Part shown: positions 8,621 through 14,722 of the stretch, in pieces
Numbering within the stretch: the stretch's first letter is position 1
Layout: each line of letters starts with the position of its first letter
Source of the DNA: Candidatus Gottesmanbacteria bacterium
GTDB lineage: Bacteria > Patescibacteriota > Microgenomatia > 2-02-FULL-39-11
NCBI GenBank assembly: GCA_016186795.1
Contig: JACPKY010000002.1
Location: 716,943-780,942 of the forward strand
Direction of reading: 5' to 3'
DNA length: 64,000 nucleotides
Translations under genes and position numbers: made by a program
Notes under the pieces: model-generated
Database searches by the model: none
The model's input: only the letters and a program-made list of their open reading frames with translations
Told to the model about the DNA's origin: nothing

Positions 8621-8966
8621 ACGCTTTTTAATAGGATTTATTTTCGGTAGTATTTTTGCGCTATTTTTTATTCTCTTTTTCGGATCAAAAAATGGACGCA
8701 GCCTTCTTGAGAAGCTTCTTGATGATGAAGAAGCGTTCGAAAAATCTTTGAGAGGAAAACTTTTGGAATTTCGTAACTTTGGTAATAGACGTATCCTTCC
8801 TTCCGATCATATCCAATCTCCTCTTAACGATCTTTCGAAGAACGACAGTGCATTTATGAAGAATCTATCTGCTGATTTTCCCCAGTCCAAGGAGGAAAAA
8901 CGGCTCTCGTTTACAAAATCAATGAAACATTTTTTTAAGAAAAACGGGAAAATCCTCACTTCCTAG
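8601..8966 (+). CDS. YtxH-like small membrane protein
   Basis: RFLIGFIFGSIFALFFILFFGSKNGRSLLEKLLDDEE resembles the YtxH-family N-terminus (GfllG...APksG). Confidence 0.4.
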   Translation: MEIDQSKRFLIGFIFGSIFALFFILFFGSKNGRSLLEKLLDDEEAFEKSLRGKLLEFRNFGNRRILPSDHIQSPLNDLSKNDSAFMKNLSADFPQSKEEKRLSFTKSMKHFFKKNGKILTS

Positions 8967-9456
8967 GAAGTCTCGTTTGGAGTTCTACAATCGATTCATC
9001 CATAACTCTCAATATCTCCTGAATGATTGATTCAGCCTCAGAGAAAGAAAGTGCTCGGAAGTTATGAGGGAAATAATGGAATACGAGATTTCTCCCCTGT
9101 TTCCAAATCGACCACATGCGATCGGCCAGAATTCTGTCGCCTGTTGCTTCAACAACCTTGTCATAAATAGATTCCCATCGAAGATGTTTTTCTAAGTGTG
9201 GGTTTAAAGCTCTCCCAATTCTGAAGTGATCACCACCATACTGTTCCTTCGTAATAAAAGAACAATCAAGAAATAACTGTTTTAGAAATCCTTCATATGC
9301 CTTGGCAAATGGAAAAACAACGTAGGAATAATCGGATATTTCTAACCGAGGATGTTCAGTTATGTCGTGAAGGAGAAATAATCCTTCCTTTATCAATCCC
9401 TTTTGATTCGGAGAAAGGTATTCCCAAATACGTGCGTTTTCATCTATCTCAACCAT
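8956..9456 (-). CDS. Hypothetical protein; possible HEPN-fold (RNxxxH) domain
   Basis: 166 aa, all-alpha in character, with a C-terminal ...WSIWKQGRNLVFHYF... giving an R-N-x3-H motif reminiscent of HEPN/Abi2-type RNases. No partner gene is recognised. Confidence 0.3.
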   Translation of the reverse strand: MVEIDENARIWEYLSPNQKGLIKEGLFLLHDITEHPRLEISDYSYVVFPFAKAYEGFLKQLFLDCSFITKEQYGGDHFRIGRALNPHLEKHLRWESIYDKVVEATGDRILADRMWSIWKQGRNLVFHYFPHNFRALSFSEAESIIQEILRVMDESIVELQTRLPRK

Positions 9457-9530: not shown

Positions 9531-10793
9531 TTACGCAAGGAGTTTGGAAACAATATGGGGAAGCGTCGTTCCCTGAACATTTCGAAGAAATTTTTCCTTT
9601 GATGGAAGAATATTTTCTGGATCTTTCAATATATGCCCAGTAAGTACACCGACGACAACATCACTCTTTTTAATGATAGTTTTTTTAACGAGCTTTTTTA
9701 TTCCGGCAACACATGTTGCCGATGCTGGTTCACAACCAATACCAGATGTGTCAATTATTTTTTTTGCTTCAAGTATTTCTTGGTCGGTAACCTCTTCAAC
9801 AACTCCATTGGTTTCCAAAATTGCCTTCTTTGCCCGTAAGAAACTCACTGGATTTCCAATTTTGATTGCAGAAGCAAGAGTGTCTGCATTCATTGTATGA
9901 CGATACTTAAAATCTCCTTTGTAACTTCTGTAAAAAGGATTCGCTCCATGGGCTTGAATAACAGCAATACGTGGAAATTTATCTATGATCCCTACCTCTT
10001 TTAAATCTTTAAGCCCTCTCCCTAGGCTTGAGGCATTCCCTAAGTTTCCGCCAGGCAAAACAACCCAGTTGGGAATTTTCCAGTTAAGCTGCTGTAGAAG
10101 TTCGTAAACAATTGTTTTCTGACCTTCAAGTCTTAATGGATTAATAGAGTTAAGTAGATAGATGTGAAATTGGTTACAGATTTTCTCAACTATACTCATT
10201 GCTTCGTCAAAATCACCATCAATTTCTATATTTGTTGCACCATACGCAATCGATTGCGCAAGCTTTGAGGAAGAAACTCTTCCTTTTGGTAAAAAGACAA
10301 AGCATGGGATCTCGGCTAGTGCTGCATAGGAAGCAAGCGAAGAAGACGTATTTCCAGTTGAAGCACACGCAACAGCTTTCACTCCAAGAAGTTTTGCGTA
10401 GGATATTCCAACCGTCATTCCTCGGTCTTTAAAACTTCCTGTAGGATTTTCACCTTCATGTTTCAAGTATAAAAAATCTACATTCGTAAATTTTCCGATT
10501 TTGTTTGAAATCGATTTCCCCACATTGTAAAGATTTGTATTCCCTTCAGGACGAGTAATAATATATTTTCCATCAATTGGGAAAAGAAACTCTTTATATC
10601 TCCAAACACCACTCTGATAAGGAAATTGGCGACTCTTCCATCTTGTATCAAAAAGTTTGGTAGAAATTTTTCCTTTCAAAGATAGAAAATCACTCCGCTC
10701 AACTTCCAGAACTTCTCCGCAATCACAACGGTATCTGATTTTGCTAAAATCAAATTTTTTATCGCAAGAAACGCATCGAAGAAAAATGATCAT
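9531..10793 (-). CDS. thrC: Threonine synthase (with N-terminal Zn-ribbon)
   Basis: The PLP motif HEGENPTGSFKDRGMTV, an N-terminal CxxC...CDC ribbon, and the fold-type II PLP enzyme layout. Confidence 0.85.
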   Translation of the reverse strand: MIIFLRCVSCDKKFDFSKIRYRCDCGEVLEVERSDFLSLKGKISTKLFDTRWKSRQFPYQSGVWRYKEFLFPIDGKYIITRPEGNTNLYNVGKSISNKIGKFTNVDFLYLKHEGENPTGSFKDRGMTVGISYAKLLGVKAVACASTGNTSSSLASYAALAEIPCFVFLPKGRVSSSKLAQSIAYGATNIEIDGDFDEAMSIVEKICNQFHIYLLNSINPLRLEGQKTIVYELLQQLNWKIPNWVVLPGGNLGNASSLGRGLKDLKEVGIIDKFPRIAVIQAHGANPFYRSYKGDFKYRHTMNADTLASAIKIGNPVSFLRAKKAILETNGVVEEVTDQEILEAKKIIDTSGIGCEPASATCVAGIKKLVKKTIIKKSDVVVGVLTGHILKDPENILPSKEKFLRNVQGTTLPHIVSKLLA

Positions 10794-10794
10794 A

Positions 10795-11418
10795 TCACTC
10801 TTTTATAAGATTAACAAAATTCTCAACGTCAAAATTATTTTTTCTCAGTAGAAAGTAATCCAGTGTTATATCAGCAATTCTTTCATATTCCTTTCTTCTA
10901 TATGCCAACAGTTTGGGATAATTCCGCTTAAGAGCTGATATATCGGTCTCATCCTGCCGTTTATTAAAACTTTCACCCCACACGACGGGCTTTGGTTCTT
11001 TGAGATAGGACGTATACATTTCGTCTTGAACTTTGTATGGAGTATCCAAATATATAATTTTTGTATTATTTTTCAATTTTTTCAAAATAGTAAAACCCGT
11101 ATATATGACACTTCCTGTTGTATCTATAACAACAGCTCTATCAGCATAATCACTGTTTACTTGATCGATGAATTTCTCAAGAGATTCTTTTTCAAATTTT
11201 AAATATTTTTTACTATTGCTTTGATATCTTTCCTCATATGGTTGACCTAGCCATTTTGAAACATCTGAAATACCCCTATAGCCTAATTTTTTTAGAACAC
11301 TTCCTAATTTATATTCTATATAATCATCACAGCAGAGCTTAATATATCCATATTCCTCCAATTTCTCCGACCAAAAGGTTTTACCTGAATTAGACATGCC
11401 AATAAGAGAAAGCTTCAT
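10795..11418 (-). CDS. P-loop NTPase/kinase of unknown specificity, embedded in the thr operon (candidate non-orthologous homoserine kinase)
   Basis: Walker A GMSNSGKTF is followed by a small kinase-like fold of 207 aa. Its start overlaps the asd stop by 4 nt, and its own stop abuts the thrC start. Confidence 0.5.
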   Translation of the reverse strand: MKLSLIGMSNSGKTFWSEKLEEYGYIKLCCDDYIEYKLGSVLKKLGYRGISDVSKWLGQPYEERYQSNSKKYLKFEKESLEKFIDQVNSDYADRAVVIDTTGSVIYTGFTILKKLKNNTKIIYLDTPYKVQDEMYTSYLKEPKPVVWGESFNKRQDETDISALKRNYPKLLAYRRKEYERIADITLDYFLLRKNNFDVENFVNLIKE

Positions 11419-12491
11419 ATATATCCTTTATTTACAAGTAATTCTGCCAAAAGTATTGCACCACCTGCGGCACCTCTAATTGTGTTGTGTGACAAGGCAA
11501 TAAATTTCCAATCAAAGTGTTTATCTTCTCGTAGTCGACCCATGGAAATTCCCATACCGTTCTCCAAATTACGATCGAGTTTACTTTGAGGTCTATTTTC
11601 TTCTTCAAAGTAATTGATAAATTCCCTGGGGGCGGATGGTAAGTGTAACTTCTCTATTGGATTTTTATAATTTTTTATTGCGCTAAGTAGCTGTTTCTTT
11701 GATGGTTTTATTCCAAAAGAAACAGAGACACTTGTCATATGTCCATTTGAAGAAGGTATGCGGATACATGTTGCCGATATCTCTGGTTTTTTTGCCAGTG
11801 CAATTTTATTGCTTCTTATTTTCCCCCAAATTTTAAGCGGCTCTTTCTCTGATTTTTCCTCCTCGCCGGCAATATTGGGAATAACATTATCAACCATCTC
11901 CGGCCAACTATCAAACGTTTTCCCAGCGCCTGATATAGACTGCATGCTGACTACATGGACCTTTTGAGGTTGAAATTTATGAAGAGTGGTAAGTATGGAT
12001 ACATACGACTGGATAGAACAATTGGGTTTAACAACAATGAATCCTTTTTTCCAACCGCGATTTTTCCTTTGAACATCGATAAGTTTTATGTGTTCAGGAT
12101 TAATTTCCGGCATAATCATAGGAACATCTTCTACCCAACGATTGGTTGAATTATTGGAAACTACAGCCATATTTTTTGATGCATAATATTCCTCAATCTT
12201 TTTGATCTGATTCTTTTCCAAATCCAGAGCAGAAAATACCAAATCGACACGCCTTACAATCTCATCAATATCTTCCTCAACAGATTGGATAACTACATTC
12301 TTAAGTGTTTTTGGAATTTCTTTATCAATTTTCCATCTTCCTTTTACAGCTTTTTGGTATATTTTTCCTTTTGAGGCAGGTGATGCTGCTAAAGCAACTA
12401 CTTCAAACCAGGGATGGTTGGCCAAAAGAGTAGCAAACCTTTGACCCACCATACCTGTGGCGCCTAATATACCGACTCTGATTTTTTTCAT
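11415..12491 (-). CDS. asd: Aspartate-semialdehyde dehydrogenase
   Basis: N-terminal GATGMVGQRF Rossmann motif, the active-site Cys region VVKPNCSIQ, and a 4-nt overlap with the upstream hom gene. Confidence 0.8.
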   Translation of the reverse strand: MKKIRVGILGATGMVGQRFATLLANHPWFEVVALAASPASKGKIYQKAVKGRWKIDKEIPKTLKNVVIQSVEEDIDEIVRRVDLVFSALDLEKNQIKKIEEYYASKNMAVVSNNSTNRWVEDVPMIMPEINPEHIKLIDVQRKNRGWKKGFIVVKPNCSIQSYVSILTTLHKFQPQKVHVVSMQSISGAGKTFDSWPEMVDNVIPNIAGEEEKSEKEPLKIWGKIRSNKIALAKKPEISATCIRIPSSNGHMTSVSVSFGIKPSKKQLLSAIKNYKNPIEKLHLPSAPREFINYFEEENRPQSKLDRNLENGMGISMGRLREDKHFDWKFIALSHNTIRGAAGGAILLAELLVNKGYI

Positions 12492-13525
12492 AGCACTCCT
12501 CCAATAGTTAATATGTCGCCAAATACTCCAGATGCAGTCACGAAAGGACCAGCACCGGGGCCCTTAATCACAAGAGGTTGAGATAAATAATATTTGGTAG
12601 TAAAGATGACTATATTATCTGGTCCCGTCAGAGTCCCAATATCATTCTCTTTTTCTACCTCTCGTAGTCCTATTGTGCAATTTTTTTTAGAAATATCGGC
12701 TACAAAACGGAGTACTTTATTTTTCTTTTTAGCTTTTTTAAATTTTTCAATATAAAGACTATCAAGTCGAACTATATGTGTCATAAATTCATCTACGGTA
12801 AATTTTTCATACTCTGGTGGGTAAAGCTTTTTTATTTGTATATCTTTCATTTCTATTTTTTGTCCAATCATCCGGGCAAGGATGATTACTTTCCTAGCCA
12901 CATCATTTCCTGATAGATCCTCTCGCGGATCAAATTCGGTGTATCCAATCTTTCGGGCAATTCTGACCGACTCAGAAAAAGACTTTCCTTCCTCTATTGA
13001 TGAACAGATAAATCCAAGCGTCCCACTGAAACAGCCAGTAATACTAATTATTTCATCGCCTGTAGCAAGGAGTGTTTTTAACGTTCGAATAACAGGCAGT
13101 CCTGCCCCGACTGTAGTTTCATGAAGTATTTGATTGGGTTTAAAAGAATGTAGCAACTTATATTGTGTATATGGACCTGCAAGCGGCCGTTTGTTTGCAA
13201 GAACAACTGATGCCCCTTTTTGCAAAGCGTGATAGAGAAATGGAAAAGTAGCATCGGATGCGGTGAGATCTAAAAGAATAAATGAGGAATTGACTTTATT
13301 GATAACATTCTTTATTTCTGCATTCATTTTTGCTGGAAAATTTCGTATTTCTTGATTTGATAAACCGTTATCGGAAAATATTCCCCCTTTACTGTTAAAT
13401 AGACCATAGTAACAGATATCAATGTTGAATCGTTTTTTAATACCATTTTCCCCTCGAGTGATTTGACCAATGAGTGCTTTGCCGACATTCCCTACTCCTA
13501 ATTGAATCAGTTGAATTTTTTTCAT
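12488..13525 (-). CDS. hom: Homoserine dehydrogenase
   Basis: IQLIQLGVGNVGKALIGQI Rossmann motif. It overlaps the upstream aspartokinase gene by 4 nt. Confidence 0.8.
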   Translation of the reverse strand: MKKIQLIQLGVGNVGKALIGQITRGENGIKKRFNIDICYYGLFNSKGGIFSDNGLSNQEIRNFPAKMNAEIKNVINKVNSSFILLDLTASDATFPFLYHALQKGASVVLANKRPLAGPYTQYKLLHSFKPNQILHETTVGAGLPVIRTLKTLLATGDEIISITGCFSGTLGFICSSIEEGKSFSESVRIARKIGYTEFDPREDLSGNDVARKVIILARMIGQKIEMKDIQIKKLYPPEYEKFTVDEFMTHIVRLDSLYIEKFKKAKKKNKVLRFVADISKKNCTIGLREVEKENDIGTLTGPDNIVIFTTKYYLSQPLVIKGPGAGPFVTASGVFGDILTIGGVL

Positions 13526-14427
13526 GTCTTATTCCCTTGCCAAATTTTTGTGCCAGCAAGTTCTGGCCTGAAGGTATTTTTCACCCAAACCACTATTTTT
13601 TTGTCAATGATAGGCTCCAGGGCTTGAGGATGAAGAACTTTTGCACCATTCTTTGCCATTTCGGCTGCTTTTTTATAAGAAATTTCCGCTAAAAATCGTG
13701 CGCTTCCATTCTTTTTTGGATCAGCAGAAAAAACTCCATCTACTTCCTTCCAAAGAATAACTTCTTGAGCATCAAGAACGTGGGCAAGAATTGTTGCGCT
13801 GTAATCGGAACCACCCCGGCCAAATGTTGTGATCCGACCGTCAAGTGTAGCCCCAAAGTAACCTGTAAATACAGGAATAATTCCCTGAATAAGCATTGGA
13901 AGAAGTACACGCTCTGCCTGGTTACGCGTTTGGGGGATAAGTACCCGCGCATCACCAAATTTGTCAGTTGTGACAATGACCTTTGAGCTTTCAATAGGTT
14001 TTGCCGTAACTCCTAGGTTTTGTAATGCGCATGCAACGAACGTGCTACTTATTCTTTCACCATAAGAAACAATATGGTCGAATGCTTCTTTACCATAATC
14101 TCGGTGGAATGTTACATACGCTGTCAGTTGAGCAAAAAGTTGGGAAAGAGAATCAAAGAAAGAACACGGACCATTCTTATTTTTCTGAATTTCTCGTGCA
14201 ATATCAAAGTGAAAGTCATGTAAATCCTGAAGCTCCTTAACTCCATTCTCAATTTGATTGGCTTTATAATTCTGATATATTGAGATGAGACGATCAGTCA
14301 CTCCTAAAAATGCCGAAACAACAATAATAACTTTTTCCTCACGTGCAAAATTTTTTATAACACCTGCAACGTGATATATTTTTTGAGCGTCAGCAAGGGA
14401 CGCTCCTCCAAATTTCATAATTTTCAT
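13522..14427 (-). CDS. Aspartokinase, catalytic domain only (no ACT regulatory domains)
   Basis: MKIMKFGGASLADAQKIYHVAGVI... is the amino-acid kinase family signature. At 301 aa it is about 100 aa shorter than ACT-containing aspartokinases. An AAGGAA Shine-Dalgarno sits 8 nt upstream. Confidence 0.8.
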   Translation of the reverse strand: MKIMKFGGASLADAQKIYHVAGVIKNFAREEKVIIVVSAFLGVTDRLISIYQNYKANQIENGVKELQDLHDFHFDIAREIQKNKNGPCSFFDSLSQLFAQLTAYVTFHRDYGKEAFDHIVSYGERISSTFVACALQNLGVTAKPIESSKVIVTTDKFGDARVLIPQTRNQAERVLLPMLIQGIIPVFTGYFGATLDGRITTFGRGGSDYSATILAHVLDAQEVILWKEVDGVFSADPKKNGSARFLAEISYKKAAEMAKNGAKVLHPQALEPIIDKKIVVWVKNTFRPELAGTKIWQGNKT

Positions 14428-14508
14428 ACTTGTTTCCTTTCAATCAGCTTGCACTAAAGCTCCAGCAGATTATGCACCTCTGCATTCTCTCATCGGCAAG
14501 AGCTGCAT

Positions 14509-14535
14509 AAAAAAACCTCCCTTTCAGGAGGTCTC
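14509..14535 (-). terminator. Attenuator terminator hairpin (GAGACCUCC-UGAAAG-GGAGGU) followed by U7, on the minus strand
   Basis: The plus strand reads AAAAAAACCTCCCTTTCAGGAGGTCTC. The reverse complement gives a GC-rich stem followed by seven U residues, about 80 nt upstream of the aspartokinase ATG. Confidence 0.6.
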
Positions 14536-14566
14536 ATTTGCATCGACAATTATCTTATCGCATTAA

Positions 14567-14635
14567 CTACGAGACCTCCTTTGTGGAGGTAGTAGTGGTA
14601 GTAACAATAAGATTTCGCAAGCGACGTAAAACCAT
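14567..14635 (-). CDS. Threonine-operon leader peptide (22 aa: MVLRRLRNLIVTTTTTSTKEVS)
   Basis: Minus-strand ORF ATG GTT TTA CGT CGC TTG CGA AAT CTT ATT GTT ACT ACC ACT ACT ACC TCC ACA AAG GAG GTC TCG TAG. It carries five consecutive Thr codons, then Ser and another Thr. The codons overlap segment 1 of the attenuator, and the stop codon lies just 3' of segment 2. Confidence 0.55.
   Translation of the reverse strand: MVLRRLRNLIVTTTTTSTKEVS
14571..14590 (-). promoter_or_regulatory. Attenuator hairpin A (ACCUCC-ACAAA-GGAGGUCUC); its 3' arm is perfectly complementary (9 bp) to the 5' arm of the terminator, forming the antiterminator
   Basis: Segment 2 (GGAGGUCUC, plus coordinates 14571-14579) is the reverse complement of segment 3 (GAGACCUCC, plus coordinates 14527-14535). 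Segments 1 and 4 repeat ACCUCC and GGAGGU. Confidence 0.6.
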
Positions 14636-14645
14636 ATTTGGTACG

Positions 14646-14674
14646 ATTGTATAGAACCTATCCTTCGTTGTCAA
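14646..14674 (-). promoter_or_regulatory. Candidate promoter for the thr leader: TTGACA-17-TACAAT (minus strand), with the -10 placed 10 nt before the leader ATG
   Basis: Reverse complement of tgtcaa at 14669-14674 and of attgta at 14646-14651, separated by 17 bp. Confidence 0.45.
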
Positions 14675-14722
14675 CAATGTACTTATCATATATACTATCA
14701 TATCAATGCAAATCTATATACT

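What the first reader, a model, noticed from the sequence alone, without database searches (positions are those of the whole stretch)
10795..11418. Orphan P-loop kinase sits exactly where homoserine kinase should be in a five-gene translationally coupled thr operon
The operon encodes aspartokinase, homoserine dehydrogenase, Asd, a 207-aa Walker-A (GMSNSGKTF) kinase-like protein, and ThrC. All junctions overlap by 4 nt or abut. The only enzymatic step from Asp to Thr not encoded is homoserine kinase (ThrB). ThrB is normally a GHMP kinase, and no GHMP-kinase-like ORF is present. The inserted gene is a small P-loop NMP/shikimate-kinase-like fold. Being co-transcribed under a threonine-specific attenuator argues that it acts in the threonine pathway, most economically as a non-orthologous homoserine kinase. 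If true, this would be a new case of non-orthologous enzyme displacement.
Basis: partly seen in the sequence, partly recalled or inferred. Interest (0 to 1): 0.72.

Follow-up and report, generated by a model that had tools for sequence, protein, structure and literature searches.

The report
Shikimate-kinase-fold homoserine kinase in thr operon
A small kinase gene in the threonine operon of an uncultured groundwater bacterium most likely does the job of the missing homoserine kinase; one similar replacement is proven in Desulfovibrio, but this unannotated family is far more widespread.

Summary
On the minus strand lie five coupled genes: aspartokinase, homoserine dehydrogenase, Asd, a 207-aa Walker-A protein (10795-11418) and ThrC. 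They follow a promoter and a threonine-codon leader-peptide attenuator.

Its best curated match is NCBIfam NF040667, the Desulfovibrio homoserine kinase shown by Price et al. 2018 to rescue E. coli thrB-. The score is 31 bits against a cutoff of 197, so it is a distinct family.

- The family has about 419 clusters at 50% identity, in CPR bacteria, DPANN archaea, Desulfobacterota, Chloroflexi and red algae.
- In 48 of 56 CPR-type loci it lies next to thr genes, usually directly upstream of thrC of either class.
- In Peribacteria it is fused to aspartokinase-ACT-homoserine dehydrogenase.
- Threonine leader peptides directly precede it in three lineages.
- GHMP ThrB and this kinase never share a locus.

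It is very probably a homoserine kinase (about 0.8), but this is untested. It is neither an orphan nor a new principle. It is a new, widespread variant that may fill part of the known "missing ThrB" gap.

The parts
14646..14674 (-). Sigma-70-type promoter, TTGACA-17 nt-TACAAT. The -10 box ends 10 nt before the leader ATG.
   Evidence: 11 of 12 consensus matches, the best in the 5.5-kb region scanned. The total count of promoter-like sites in that region is not above the shuffled expectation, so only position and quality support this one.
14567..14635 (-). Leader peptide ORF MVLRRLRNLIVTTTTTSTKEVS* (six Thr and one Ser in seven consecutive codons). It contains attenuator region 1 (14590..14585, ACCUCC) and region 2 (14581..14570, AAGGAGGUCUCG).
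   Evidence: sequence and translation; the 1:2 hairpin.
14509..14535 (-). Attenuator regions 3 and 4: an intrinsic terminator, GAGACCUCCU-GAAA-GGGAGGUUUU followed by a U run. Region 3 can instead form a perfect 10-bp pairing with region 2 (the antiterminator).
   Evidence: fold z = -4.72; the free RNA forms the 1:2 hairpin plus the terminator. With the first 12-20 nt masked, a 12-bp antiterminator stem forms and the terminator disappears. With 32 nt masked, the terminator returns.
13522..14427 (-). Aspartate kinase, catalytic domain only (301 aa, no ACT domains).
   Evidence: PF00696, 1e-47; TIGR00657, 273 bits, matching profile positions 5-286 of 442.
12488..13525 (-). Homoserine dehydrogenase (345 aa).
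   Evidence: PF00742, 4.8e-46.
11415..12491 (-). Aspartate-semialdehyde dehydrogenase (358 aa).
   Evidence: NF006416, 460.7 bits; TIGR00978, 349.5 bits.
10795..11418 (-). The finding: a 207-aa P-loop kinase of shikimate-kinase fold, predicted to be an ATP:L-homoserine O-phosphotransferase.

Conserved residues are Walker A G7-M-S-x-x-G-K13, D31, E35, the W56-x-G58-x-P60 loop, E76, D99-T-T-G-S103, P142-K-P144, W147, R174 and Y178.
   Evidence: sequence, structure, families. (genomic context).
9531..10793 (-). Threonine synthase ThrC (420 aa), which uses O-phosphohomoserine.
   Evidence: TIGR00260 equivalog, 278.6 bits against a cutoff of 167.1; PALP.

Best explanation
The ORF at 10795-11418 (minus strand) encodes an ATP-dependent L-homoserine kinase built on the shikimate-kinase (NMP-kinase-like P-loop) fold. 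It takes the place of the GHMP-type ThrB in this Candidatus Gottesmanbacteria genome.

Pathway logic from established biochemistry: aspartokinase, then Asd, then homoserine dehydrogenase make L-homoserine. This kinase phosphorylates the gamma-hydroxyl to give O-phospho-L-homoserine. ThrC converts that to threonine.

Inferred catalytic roles:
- Walker-A K13/T14 hold ATP-Mg.
- D31 aligns with the catalytic Asp of shikimate kinase and activates the hydroxyl.
- The lid segment P142-K143-P144...W147 closes over the phosphates.
- R174 aligns with shikimate kinase R136 and would bind the substrate carboxylate.
- The family-specific acidic residues D99 and E76, and the inserted W56-G-x-P loop, would reshape the pocket for an amino acid instead of shikimate.

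Expression of the whole operon is set by a threonine-codon leader-peptide attenuator.

Shown here: fold, conserved residues, gene order, fusions, co-regulation signals and locus-level exclusion with ThrB. Inferred: the substrate and all residue roles.
For: 1. Family placement. NF040667 (hom_kin_desulfo, homoserine kinase) is the best NCBIfam hit for the window protein, for all 38 aligned members (best E 5e-13) and for 10 more members from other phyla and from the fusion protein (29-49 bits). Shikimate kinase models score 15-20 bits lower or not at all. NF040667 appears to represent the Desulfovibrio homoserine kinase family of DvMF_0971 (my inference from its name and description). DvMF_0971 rescues an E. 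coli thrB- strain (PMC5764234).

3. The pocket is not a shikimate pocket. In the hhalign comparison with E. coli AroK (96% probability) the catalytic Asp and R136 equivalents are kept. The FRxxE arginine aligns with L73, and GGG is T101-G102-S103.

4. Gene context. 48 of 56 CPR/archaeal-type loci have a thr gene on the same strand within 300 nt. Most often this is thrC immediately downstream, and it can be either the short ThrC class or the Thr_synth_N class.

5. Fusions. Aspartokinase-ACT-homoserine dehydrogenase-kinase fusions of 1031-1047 aa occur in Peribacteria (L038 and L040; L044 and L047; P0135).

6. One genome carries two kinase-thrC pairs.

7. thrS is adjacent in 15 loci, including Desulfobacterales.

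8. Co-regulation. Thr-run leader peptides followed by terminators lie directly upstream of the kinase gene in L011, L026 and L045, and upstream of thr operons in at least 8 further loci.

9. Locus-level complementarity. 28 of 80 loci holding the closest ThrC relatives carry GHMP ThrB beside ThrC and none carries this kinase. None of the 80 kinase loci carries GHMP ThrB.

10. No aro (shikimate pathway) family recurs among 135 other neighbouring ORFs.
Against: - There is no biochemical or genetic test of any member of this family.
- The score against NF040667 (31 bits) is far below its cutoff (197). I could not obtain DvMF_0971 itself for a direct comparison or a tree, so a specific common origin with the Desulfovibrio enzyme is not shown.
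- Only 64 kb of a contig of about 1.12 Mb was visible. A GHMP ThrB, a TIGR02535-type enzyme or a ThrH could lie elsewhere.
- Outside CPR the context is weak. Only 3 of 24 loci labelled Desulfobacterota, Chloroflexi or other non-CPR taxa have a threonine-related neighbour (thrS). Two Woesearchaeota loci have none.
- Context-based ThrB replacements can fail in tests. BT2402 (TIGR02535) did not rescue E. coli thrB-, and a genuine shikimate kinase of Phaeobacter did not either.
Confidence: 0.8

Rival explanations
1. It is a kinase that serves the threonine pathway in another way. For example, it might phosphorylate a different hydroxy-amino acid or intermediate (L-serine, L-threonine, 4-hydroxythreonine). 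Or it might act as a regulatory or accessory ATPase for ThrC or homoserine dehydrogenase, rather than making O-phosphohomoserine.
For: The substrate is not measured. The pocket differs from every solved relative, with family-specific inserts and D99/E76. Context proves only a link to threonine metabolism. BT2402 shows that a gene can be needed for threonine synthesis without rescuing thrB-.
Against: Homoserine phosphorylation is the only step of Asp-to-Thr without a gene in the operon. The kinase is fused to the C-terminus of homoserine dehydrogenase, whose product is homoserine. It is paired with bona fide ThrC of two classes, whose substrate is O-phosphohomoserine. Induction on threonine starvation fits a biosynthetic enzyme and not a threonine-consuming one. 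The nearest curated family is a homoserine kinase.
Confidence: 0.12
2. It is an ordinary, divergent shikimate kinase (AroK/AroL), as JGI, UniRef and some GenBank records name its relatives.
For: It has a shikimate-kinase fold. 20 of 38 members give weak Pfam SKI hits. Sources name homologues 'shikimate kinase'.
Against: The window protein has no SKI or AroK/AroL hit at E<=0.01. The shikimate-binding Arg of FRxxE and the GGG motif are replaced. No aro gene recurs near any of 80 loci, whereas thr genes do. From my own knowledge, not tested here, CPR bacteria generally lack the shikimate pathway.
Confidence: 0.03
3. It is an unrelated small nucleotide or metabolite kinase that sits in the operon by chance, or as a recent insertion with no role in threonine synthesis.
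For: The sequence gives only weak generic P-loop hits: AAA_33, and DUF7790 at 24.6 bits against a cutoff of 23.
Against: The adjacency is conserved across many CPR classes at 42-55% identity. Other evidence is translational coupling by ATGA overlap, domain fusion and dedicated Thr attenuators in front of the kinase gene. DUF7790 is hit by only 1 of 38 members.
Confidence: 0.02

Closest known systems
Desulfovibrio homoserine kinase DvMF_0971 (NCBIfam NF040667, hom_kin_desulfo; Price et al. 2018, PMC5764234)
   Same: It is a small P-loop protein related to shikimate kinase that replaces GHMP ThrB. NF040667 is the best curated model for every member of the present family that I tested. The predicted reaction is the same.
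   Different: Scores are 29-49 bits against a cutoff of 197, so PGAP does not name these proteins. The present family is about 207 aa against a 163-position model. It has an inserted W-G-x-P loop and a longer lid. It sits inside thr operons or is fused to ThrA-like proteins. It spans CPR, DPANN, Desulfobacterota, Chloroflexi and red algae. No member has been tested experimentally.
Shikimate kinase AroK/AroL (Pfam PF01202)
   Different: The FRxxE arginine is Leu and GGG is TGS. There are extra inserts. The genomic context is threonine, not aromatic amino acids.
GHMP-family homoserine kinase ThrB (E. coli thrB type)
   Same: It occupies the same operon slot, immediately next to thrC and downstream of hom. 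The predicted reaction is the same.
   Different: The fold and sequence are unrelated, with no GHMP motif. The two never occur together in the 160 loci examined.
TIGR02535 / ThrB2 (BT2402), the phosphoglycerate-mutase-like predicted homoserine kinase of Bacteroidetes and some archaea
   Same: It is another context-predicted replacement for ThrB in thr operons.
   Different: It has a different fold and probably a different phosphoryl donor. Its activity is still unproven, and it failed to rescue E. coli thrB-.

Membership tests
NF040667 hom_kin_desulfo (shikimate-kinase-like homoserine kinase) | Whole-protein score at or above the curated cutoff (197 bits) | tested here: not met
   30.8 bits for the window protein. 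Other members score 28.9-48.9 bits; the best E-value among the 38 aligned members is 5.1e-13.
NF040667 hom_kin_desulfo (shikimate-kinase-like homoserine kinase) | The model is the best-scoring curated family, ahead of shikimate kinase models | tested here: met
   It is the top hit for 38 of 38 aligned members plus 10 of 10 further members. Shikimate kinase models are absent or 15-20 bits lower.
NF040667 hom_kin_desulfo (shikimate-kinase-like homoserine kinase) | Homoserine kinase activity (rescue of thrB-, or threonine-rescued auxotrophy of mutants) | not testable with these tools
   This is known only for DvMF_0971.
Shikimate kinase (AroK/AroL, PF01202) | Pfam or NCBIfam score at or above threshold | tested here: not met
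   The window protein has no SKI, AroK or AroL hit at E<=0.01. 20 of 38 members give hits, with a best E of 3.9e-7.
Shikimate kinase (AroK/AroL, PF01202) | Shikimate-binding residues: the Arg of FRxxE (M. tuberculosis R58) and the GGG motif (G79-G81) | tested here: not met
   In the hhalign comparison with E. coli AroK the Arg aligns with L73 and GGG aligns with T101-G102-S103.
Shikimate kinase (AroK/AroL, PF01202) | Walker A, catalytic Asp, and overall fold | tested here: met
Shikimate kinase (AroK/AroL, PF01202) | Genomic association with aro genes | tested here: not met
   No aro family is listed among the recurrent families of 135 neighbouring ORFs (only the 25 most frequent are shown). 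thr genes are adjacent in 48 of 56 CPR-type loci.
GHMP homoserine kinase ThrB | GHMP kinase domains and the PxGSGLGSS motif | tested here: not met
   There are no GHMP Pfam hits. The fold is P-loop, NMP-kinase-like.
Leader-peptide transcription attenuator (thr/trp/his type) | A short ORF rich in the regulatory codon, overlapping region 1 of mutually exclusive 1:2, 2:3 and 3:4 helices, with 3:4 an intrinsic terminator | tested here: met
   Function in vivo was not tested.

The most novel reading that the evidence does not exclude
This is a separate, ancient family of shikimate-kinase-fold homoserine kinases, not merely a stray relative of the Desulfovibrio enzyme. On this reading it is the principal homoserine kinase of CPR bacteria. 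It would also serve many Desulfobacterota and Chloroflexi, some DPANN archaea and, with a plastid-type N-terminal extension, red algae. It would then account for a sizeable share of the prototrophs that GapMind reports as lacking any known ThrB.
Probability: 0.45. Interest if true: 0.65.

Novelty: new variant of a known kind. Interest (0 to 1): 0.5.

Why it matters
Homoserine kinase is one of the steps most often reported as missing in automated reconstructions of amino acid biosynthesis. GapMind rated it low-confidence in 29 of 148 prototrophs, and 14 of those also lack the TIGR02535 candidate.

A family of about 419 clusters at 50% identity is currently labelled 'hypothetical' or mislabelled 'shikimate kinase'. 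It has strong genomic evidence for this activity and gives a directly testable candidate.

Confirming it would have three consequences:
- It would correct auxotrophy predictions for CPR/Patescibacteria, which are usually assumed to be unable to make amino acids, and for Desulfobacterota and Chloroflexi.
- It would stop shikimate pathway steps being wrongly credited to genomes that lack the pathway.
- It would raise the question of how red algae make O-phosphohomoserine.

The conserved Thr leader-peptide attenuators also show classical ribosome-mediated attenuation operating in CPR bacteria.

Tried and rejected
- I could not obtain the DvMF_0971 sequence or the NF040667 seed sequences. All three large protein searches list only the 120 best hits, which are all close family members. 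The exhaustive profile search lists only the top 150. The relation to the Desulfovibrio enzyme therefore rests on HMM scores only.
- The afdb50 fold library was unavailable.
- The first metagenome scan, with the single ThrC sequence, found nothing. The repeat with an alignment worked.
- The look-up of the exact window protein only returned the same locus again.
- The third protein search, seeded with a Desulfobacter-like member to find cultured carriers, returned only MAG and metagenome proteins.
- Two Woesearchaeota contexts were uninformative.
- Literature searches for this family in CPR or red algae found nothing beyond Price 2018, GapMind and a gut-microbiome ThrB2 paper. GapMind's supplements added nothing useful.
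- The DUF7790 Pfam hit (24.6 bits against a cutoff of 23) was dismissed as generic P-loop similarity, because only 1 of 38 members shows it.
- Direct phmmer of the protein against PDB sequences gave only noise.

Full report
**What is in the window.** On the minus strand lie five tightly packed ORFs:
- 14427..13522, 301 aa
- 13525..12488, 345 aa
- 12491..11415, 358 aa
- 11418..10795, 207 aa
- 10793..9531, 420 aa

Pfam and NCBIfam assign four of them without ambiguity:
- Aspartate kinase: TIGR00657, 273 bits. Only the catalytic domain is present, with no ACT domains.
- Homoserine dehydrogenase: PF00742, 4.8e-46.
- Aspartate-semialdehyde dehydrogenase: NF006416, 461 bits.
- Threonine synthase: TIGR00260, 278.6 bits against a cutoff of 167.

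The first three junctions are ATGA overlaps. The last is TGA-t-ATG.

The identical 207-aa protein is on record as hypothetical protein HYW55_04790 of a Candidatus Gottesmanbacteria MAG, on a contig of 1,118,283 bp. The organism is thus a CPR/Patescibacteria bacterium.

**The attenuator.** A near-consensus promoter (TTGACA-17-TACAAT, 14674..14646) lies upstream of the aspartokinase gene. Ten bases after the -10 box, a 22-codon ORF begins (14635..14567). It encodes MVLRRLRNLIVTTTTTSTKEVS. The leader RNA folds far better than shuffled controls (z = -4.7).

Masking nucleotides to imitate a ribosome gives the behaviour of a classical four-region attenuator:
- Free RNA forms a 1:2 hairpin (ACCUCC / GGAGGU) plus a 3:4 terminator at 14535..14509, followed by a U run.
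- With the first 12-20 nt covered (ribosome stalled on the Thr codons), region 2 pairs with region 3 in a 12-bp antiterminator, and the terminator disappears.
- With 32 nt covered (ribosome at the stop codon), the terminator returns.

**What the 207-aa protein is.** It has a Walker A motif (GMSNSGKT). It is not an orphan:
- The word-indexed search found 319 homologues.
- An exhaustive profile search found 419 clusters at 50% identity with E<=1e-30, and 650 with E<=1e-10.
- 357 GTDB species genomes encode a relative.

An alignment of 38 members (A1) shows these invariant or near-invariant positions: G7, M8, S9, G12, K13, D31, E35, W56, G58, P60, E76, D99, T100, T101, G102, S103, P142, K143, P144, W147, R174 and Y178.

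A profile-profile comparison with E. coli AroK gives 96% probability. It aligns:
- D31 with the catalytic Asp of shikimate kinase
- K143-P144 with the lid RPLL motif
- R174 with the carboxylate-binding R136

Two signature shikimate-binding elements are changed. The Arg of FRxxE aligns with L73, and GGG is T101-G102-S103. Two inserts are specific to the family (residues ~42-52 and ~64-70 in the AroK alignment); the conserved W56-x-G58-x-P60 loop lies between them.

The window protein has no Pfam SKI hit and no AroK/AroL NCBIfam hit at E<=0.01. So it has the shikimate-kinase fold but fails the tests that define a shikimate kinase.

**The precedent.** Price et al. [quoted passage not shown] It had been annotated as shikimate kinase. 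Mutants are rescued by threonine, and the gene rescues an E. coli thrB- strain.

NCBIfam NF040667 (hom_kin_desulfo) appears, from its name and description, to represent that family. It is the best NCBIfam hit for:
- the window protein (30.8 bits)
- all 38 members of A1
- ten further members from Desulfobacterota, Chloroflexi, an archaeon and a fusion protein (29-49 bits)

It always scores ahead of the shikimate kinase models. All scores are far below the curated cutoff of 197. The present family is therefore not a member by that criterion, and annotation pipelines call it hypothetical or 'shikimate kinase'. I could not retrieve DvMF_0971 itself, so I cannot say whether the two groups are sisters.

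**Genomic context across 80 species (L004-L083).** I used the window's own proteins, a second ThrC class, ThrRS and E. coli ThrB as probes.
- 48 of 56 loci with CPR, archaeal or placeholder labels have a threonine gene on the same strand within 300 nt of the kinase gene. Most often this is thrC immediately downstream.
- The partner ThrC belongs to either of two classes: the short type of the window, or the Thr_synth_N type. The link is therefore to the reaction, not to one gene lineage.
- In Peribacteria the kinase is the C-terminal domain of a protein of 1031-1047 aa: aspartokinase-ACT-homoserine dehydrogenase-kinase (L038 and L040; L044 and L047; P0135 and P0133). This is a ThrA-like protein extended by exactly the next enzyme of the pathway.
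- One 1.2-Mb CPR contig carries two kinase-thrC pairs.
- thrS is adjacent in 15 loci. These include thrS-kinase-thrC operons and three Desulfobacterales loci.
- Thr-run leader peptides followed by terminators lie directly upstream of the kinase gene in L011, L026 and L045, and upstream of thr operons in L013, L016, L020, L025, L030, L041, L061 and L082.
- Among 135 other neighbouring ORFs, no shikimate pathway family appears among the listed recurrent families (only the 25 most frequent are shown). The recurrent families include Cys/Met PLP enzymes and IF3.

**Positional displacement.** A metagenome scan with an alignment of the window-type ThrC returned the 80 closest ThrC loci. In 28 of them a GHMP ThrB, detected with E. 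coli ThrB, lies beside thrC. It typically appears as hom-thrB-thrC. None of these loci contains the P-loop kinase. Conversely, none of the 80 kinase loci and nothing in the 64-kb window resembles GHMP ThrB. The same operon slot is thus filled by one or the other.

**Limits.**
- No member of the family has been assayed.
- I saw only 64 kb of the genome, so a canonical thrB elsewhere is not excluded.
- In loci labelled Desulfobacterota, Chloroflexi or other non-CPR taxa (24 loci) only the three thrS neighbours link the gene to threonine. Two Woesearchaeota loci are uninformative.
- Context-based predictions of ThrB replacements have failed before in complementation tests (BT2402).

**Conclusion.** This is most likely a homoserine kinase of shikimate-kinase fold (my confidence is about 0.8).

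The principle is already known from Desulfovibrio. What is new is a distinct, unannotated and much more widespread family, embedded in thr operons, fused to ThrA-like proteins and placed under Thr attenuators. It also reaches red algae, where members carry long Ser/Ala/Arg-rich N-terminal extensions.

Homoserine kinase is one of the most frequent unexplained gaps in amino acid pathway reconstruction. The family is therefore a useful and cheaply testable candidate. I rate it as a new variant of a known kind, of moderate interest.

Noticed in passing
window 14509-14674 (minus strand); L011:1553, L013:4849, L016:4110, L020:430, L025:1338, L026:1282, L030:4075, L041:6708, L045:7866, L061:4274, L082:4209: Classical Thr-codon leader-peptide attenuators (runs of 5-10 Thr codons followed by an intrinsic terminator) precede thr operons in many CPR lineages. 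Their sequences are unrelated to one another. In the window the leader ATG lies only 10 nt after the -10 box, so the leader peptide mRNA would be nearly leaderless.
   Followed up: partly
L024:9985 (before ThrRS at 10122-12053); L023:12809 (before ThrRS at 12935-14713): Short Thr-run ORFs (MELNYVDRLSEYILLILNTTTTTTC, MKNRRITTTTTTP) sit directly upstream of threonyl-tRNA synthetase genes. This suggests pheST-like leader-peptide attenuation of thrS in CPR bacteria.
   Followed up: no
window 13522-14427 and 12488-13525 (minus strand): The aspartokinase (301 aa) has no ACT regulatory domains, and no ACT domain was detected in the homoserine dehydrogenase either. The same short aspartokinase recurs in related loci (for example L013, L015, L023, L030). 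Control of the pathway may rest on the attenuator rather than on allosteric feedback.
   Followed up: no
P0260, P0272 (Porphyridium purpureum FVE85_9190), P0285 (Gracilariopsis chorda), P0207 (Galdieria sulphuraria Gasu_38570), P0310, P0318, P0228, P0262, P0231, P0241: Red algae encode clear members of the family, with all conserved motifs kept. They carry 80-170 aa Ser/Ala/Arg-rich N-terminal extensions that look like plastid transit peptides. They are annotated as hypothetical or shikimate kinase.
   Followed up: partly
L038:5481-8615, L040:5481-8624, L044, L047; P0135, P0133: Peribacteria/Peregrinibacteria-type loci encode a single polypeptide of 1031-1047 aa: aspartokinase-ACT-ACT-homoserine dehydrogenase-P-loop kinase. 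thrC follows it.
   Followed up: yes
L084 and L085 (JGI contig Ga0645779_00032, 1.2 Mb): One CPR genome has two kinase-thrC pairs. One sits in a ThrA-asd-kinase-thrC operon. The other follows a LysX / LysY-like / homocitrate synthase / LysZ-like / aminotransferase cluster (the alpha-aminoadipate-type lysine pathway).
   Followed up: no
L004:8913-10055; L005:2776-4359 and L005:11908-12557: A Cys/Met-metabolism PLP enzyme (cystathionine gamma-synthase-like) lies directly after the kinase gene in L004, and two more occur within the L005 locus. This hints that O-phosphohomoserine may also feed methionine synthesis there, as it does in plants.
   Followed up: no
L055:435-3795 and L059:7181-10580: In two loci labelled Syntrophobacteraceae (L055) and 'delta proteobacterium' (L059) the kinase gene lies between a DUF4126 membrane protein gene and an ACT_6 protein gene; in L055 the ACT_6 gene is followed by DUF711. 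The meaning is unknown.
   Followed up: no
window 8956-9456 (minus strand): A 166-aa RnlA/LsoA-like HEPN protein gene (PF18869 29.3 bits, PF19034) starts 75 nt downstream of thrC on the same strand. No terminator was detected in between.
   Followed up: no
L057 and L063 (Desulfatiglandales MAG DATKZQ01): Two paralogues of the kinase occur in one Desulfatiglandales MAG. Neither lies next to thr genes.
   Followed up: no
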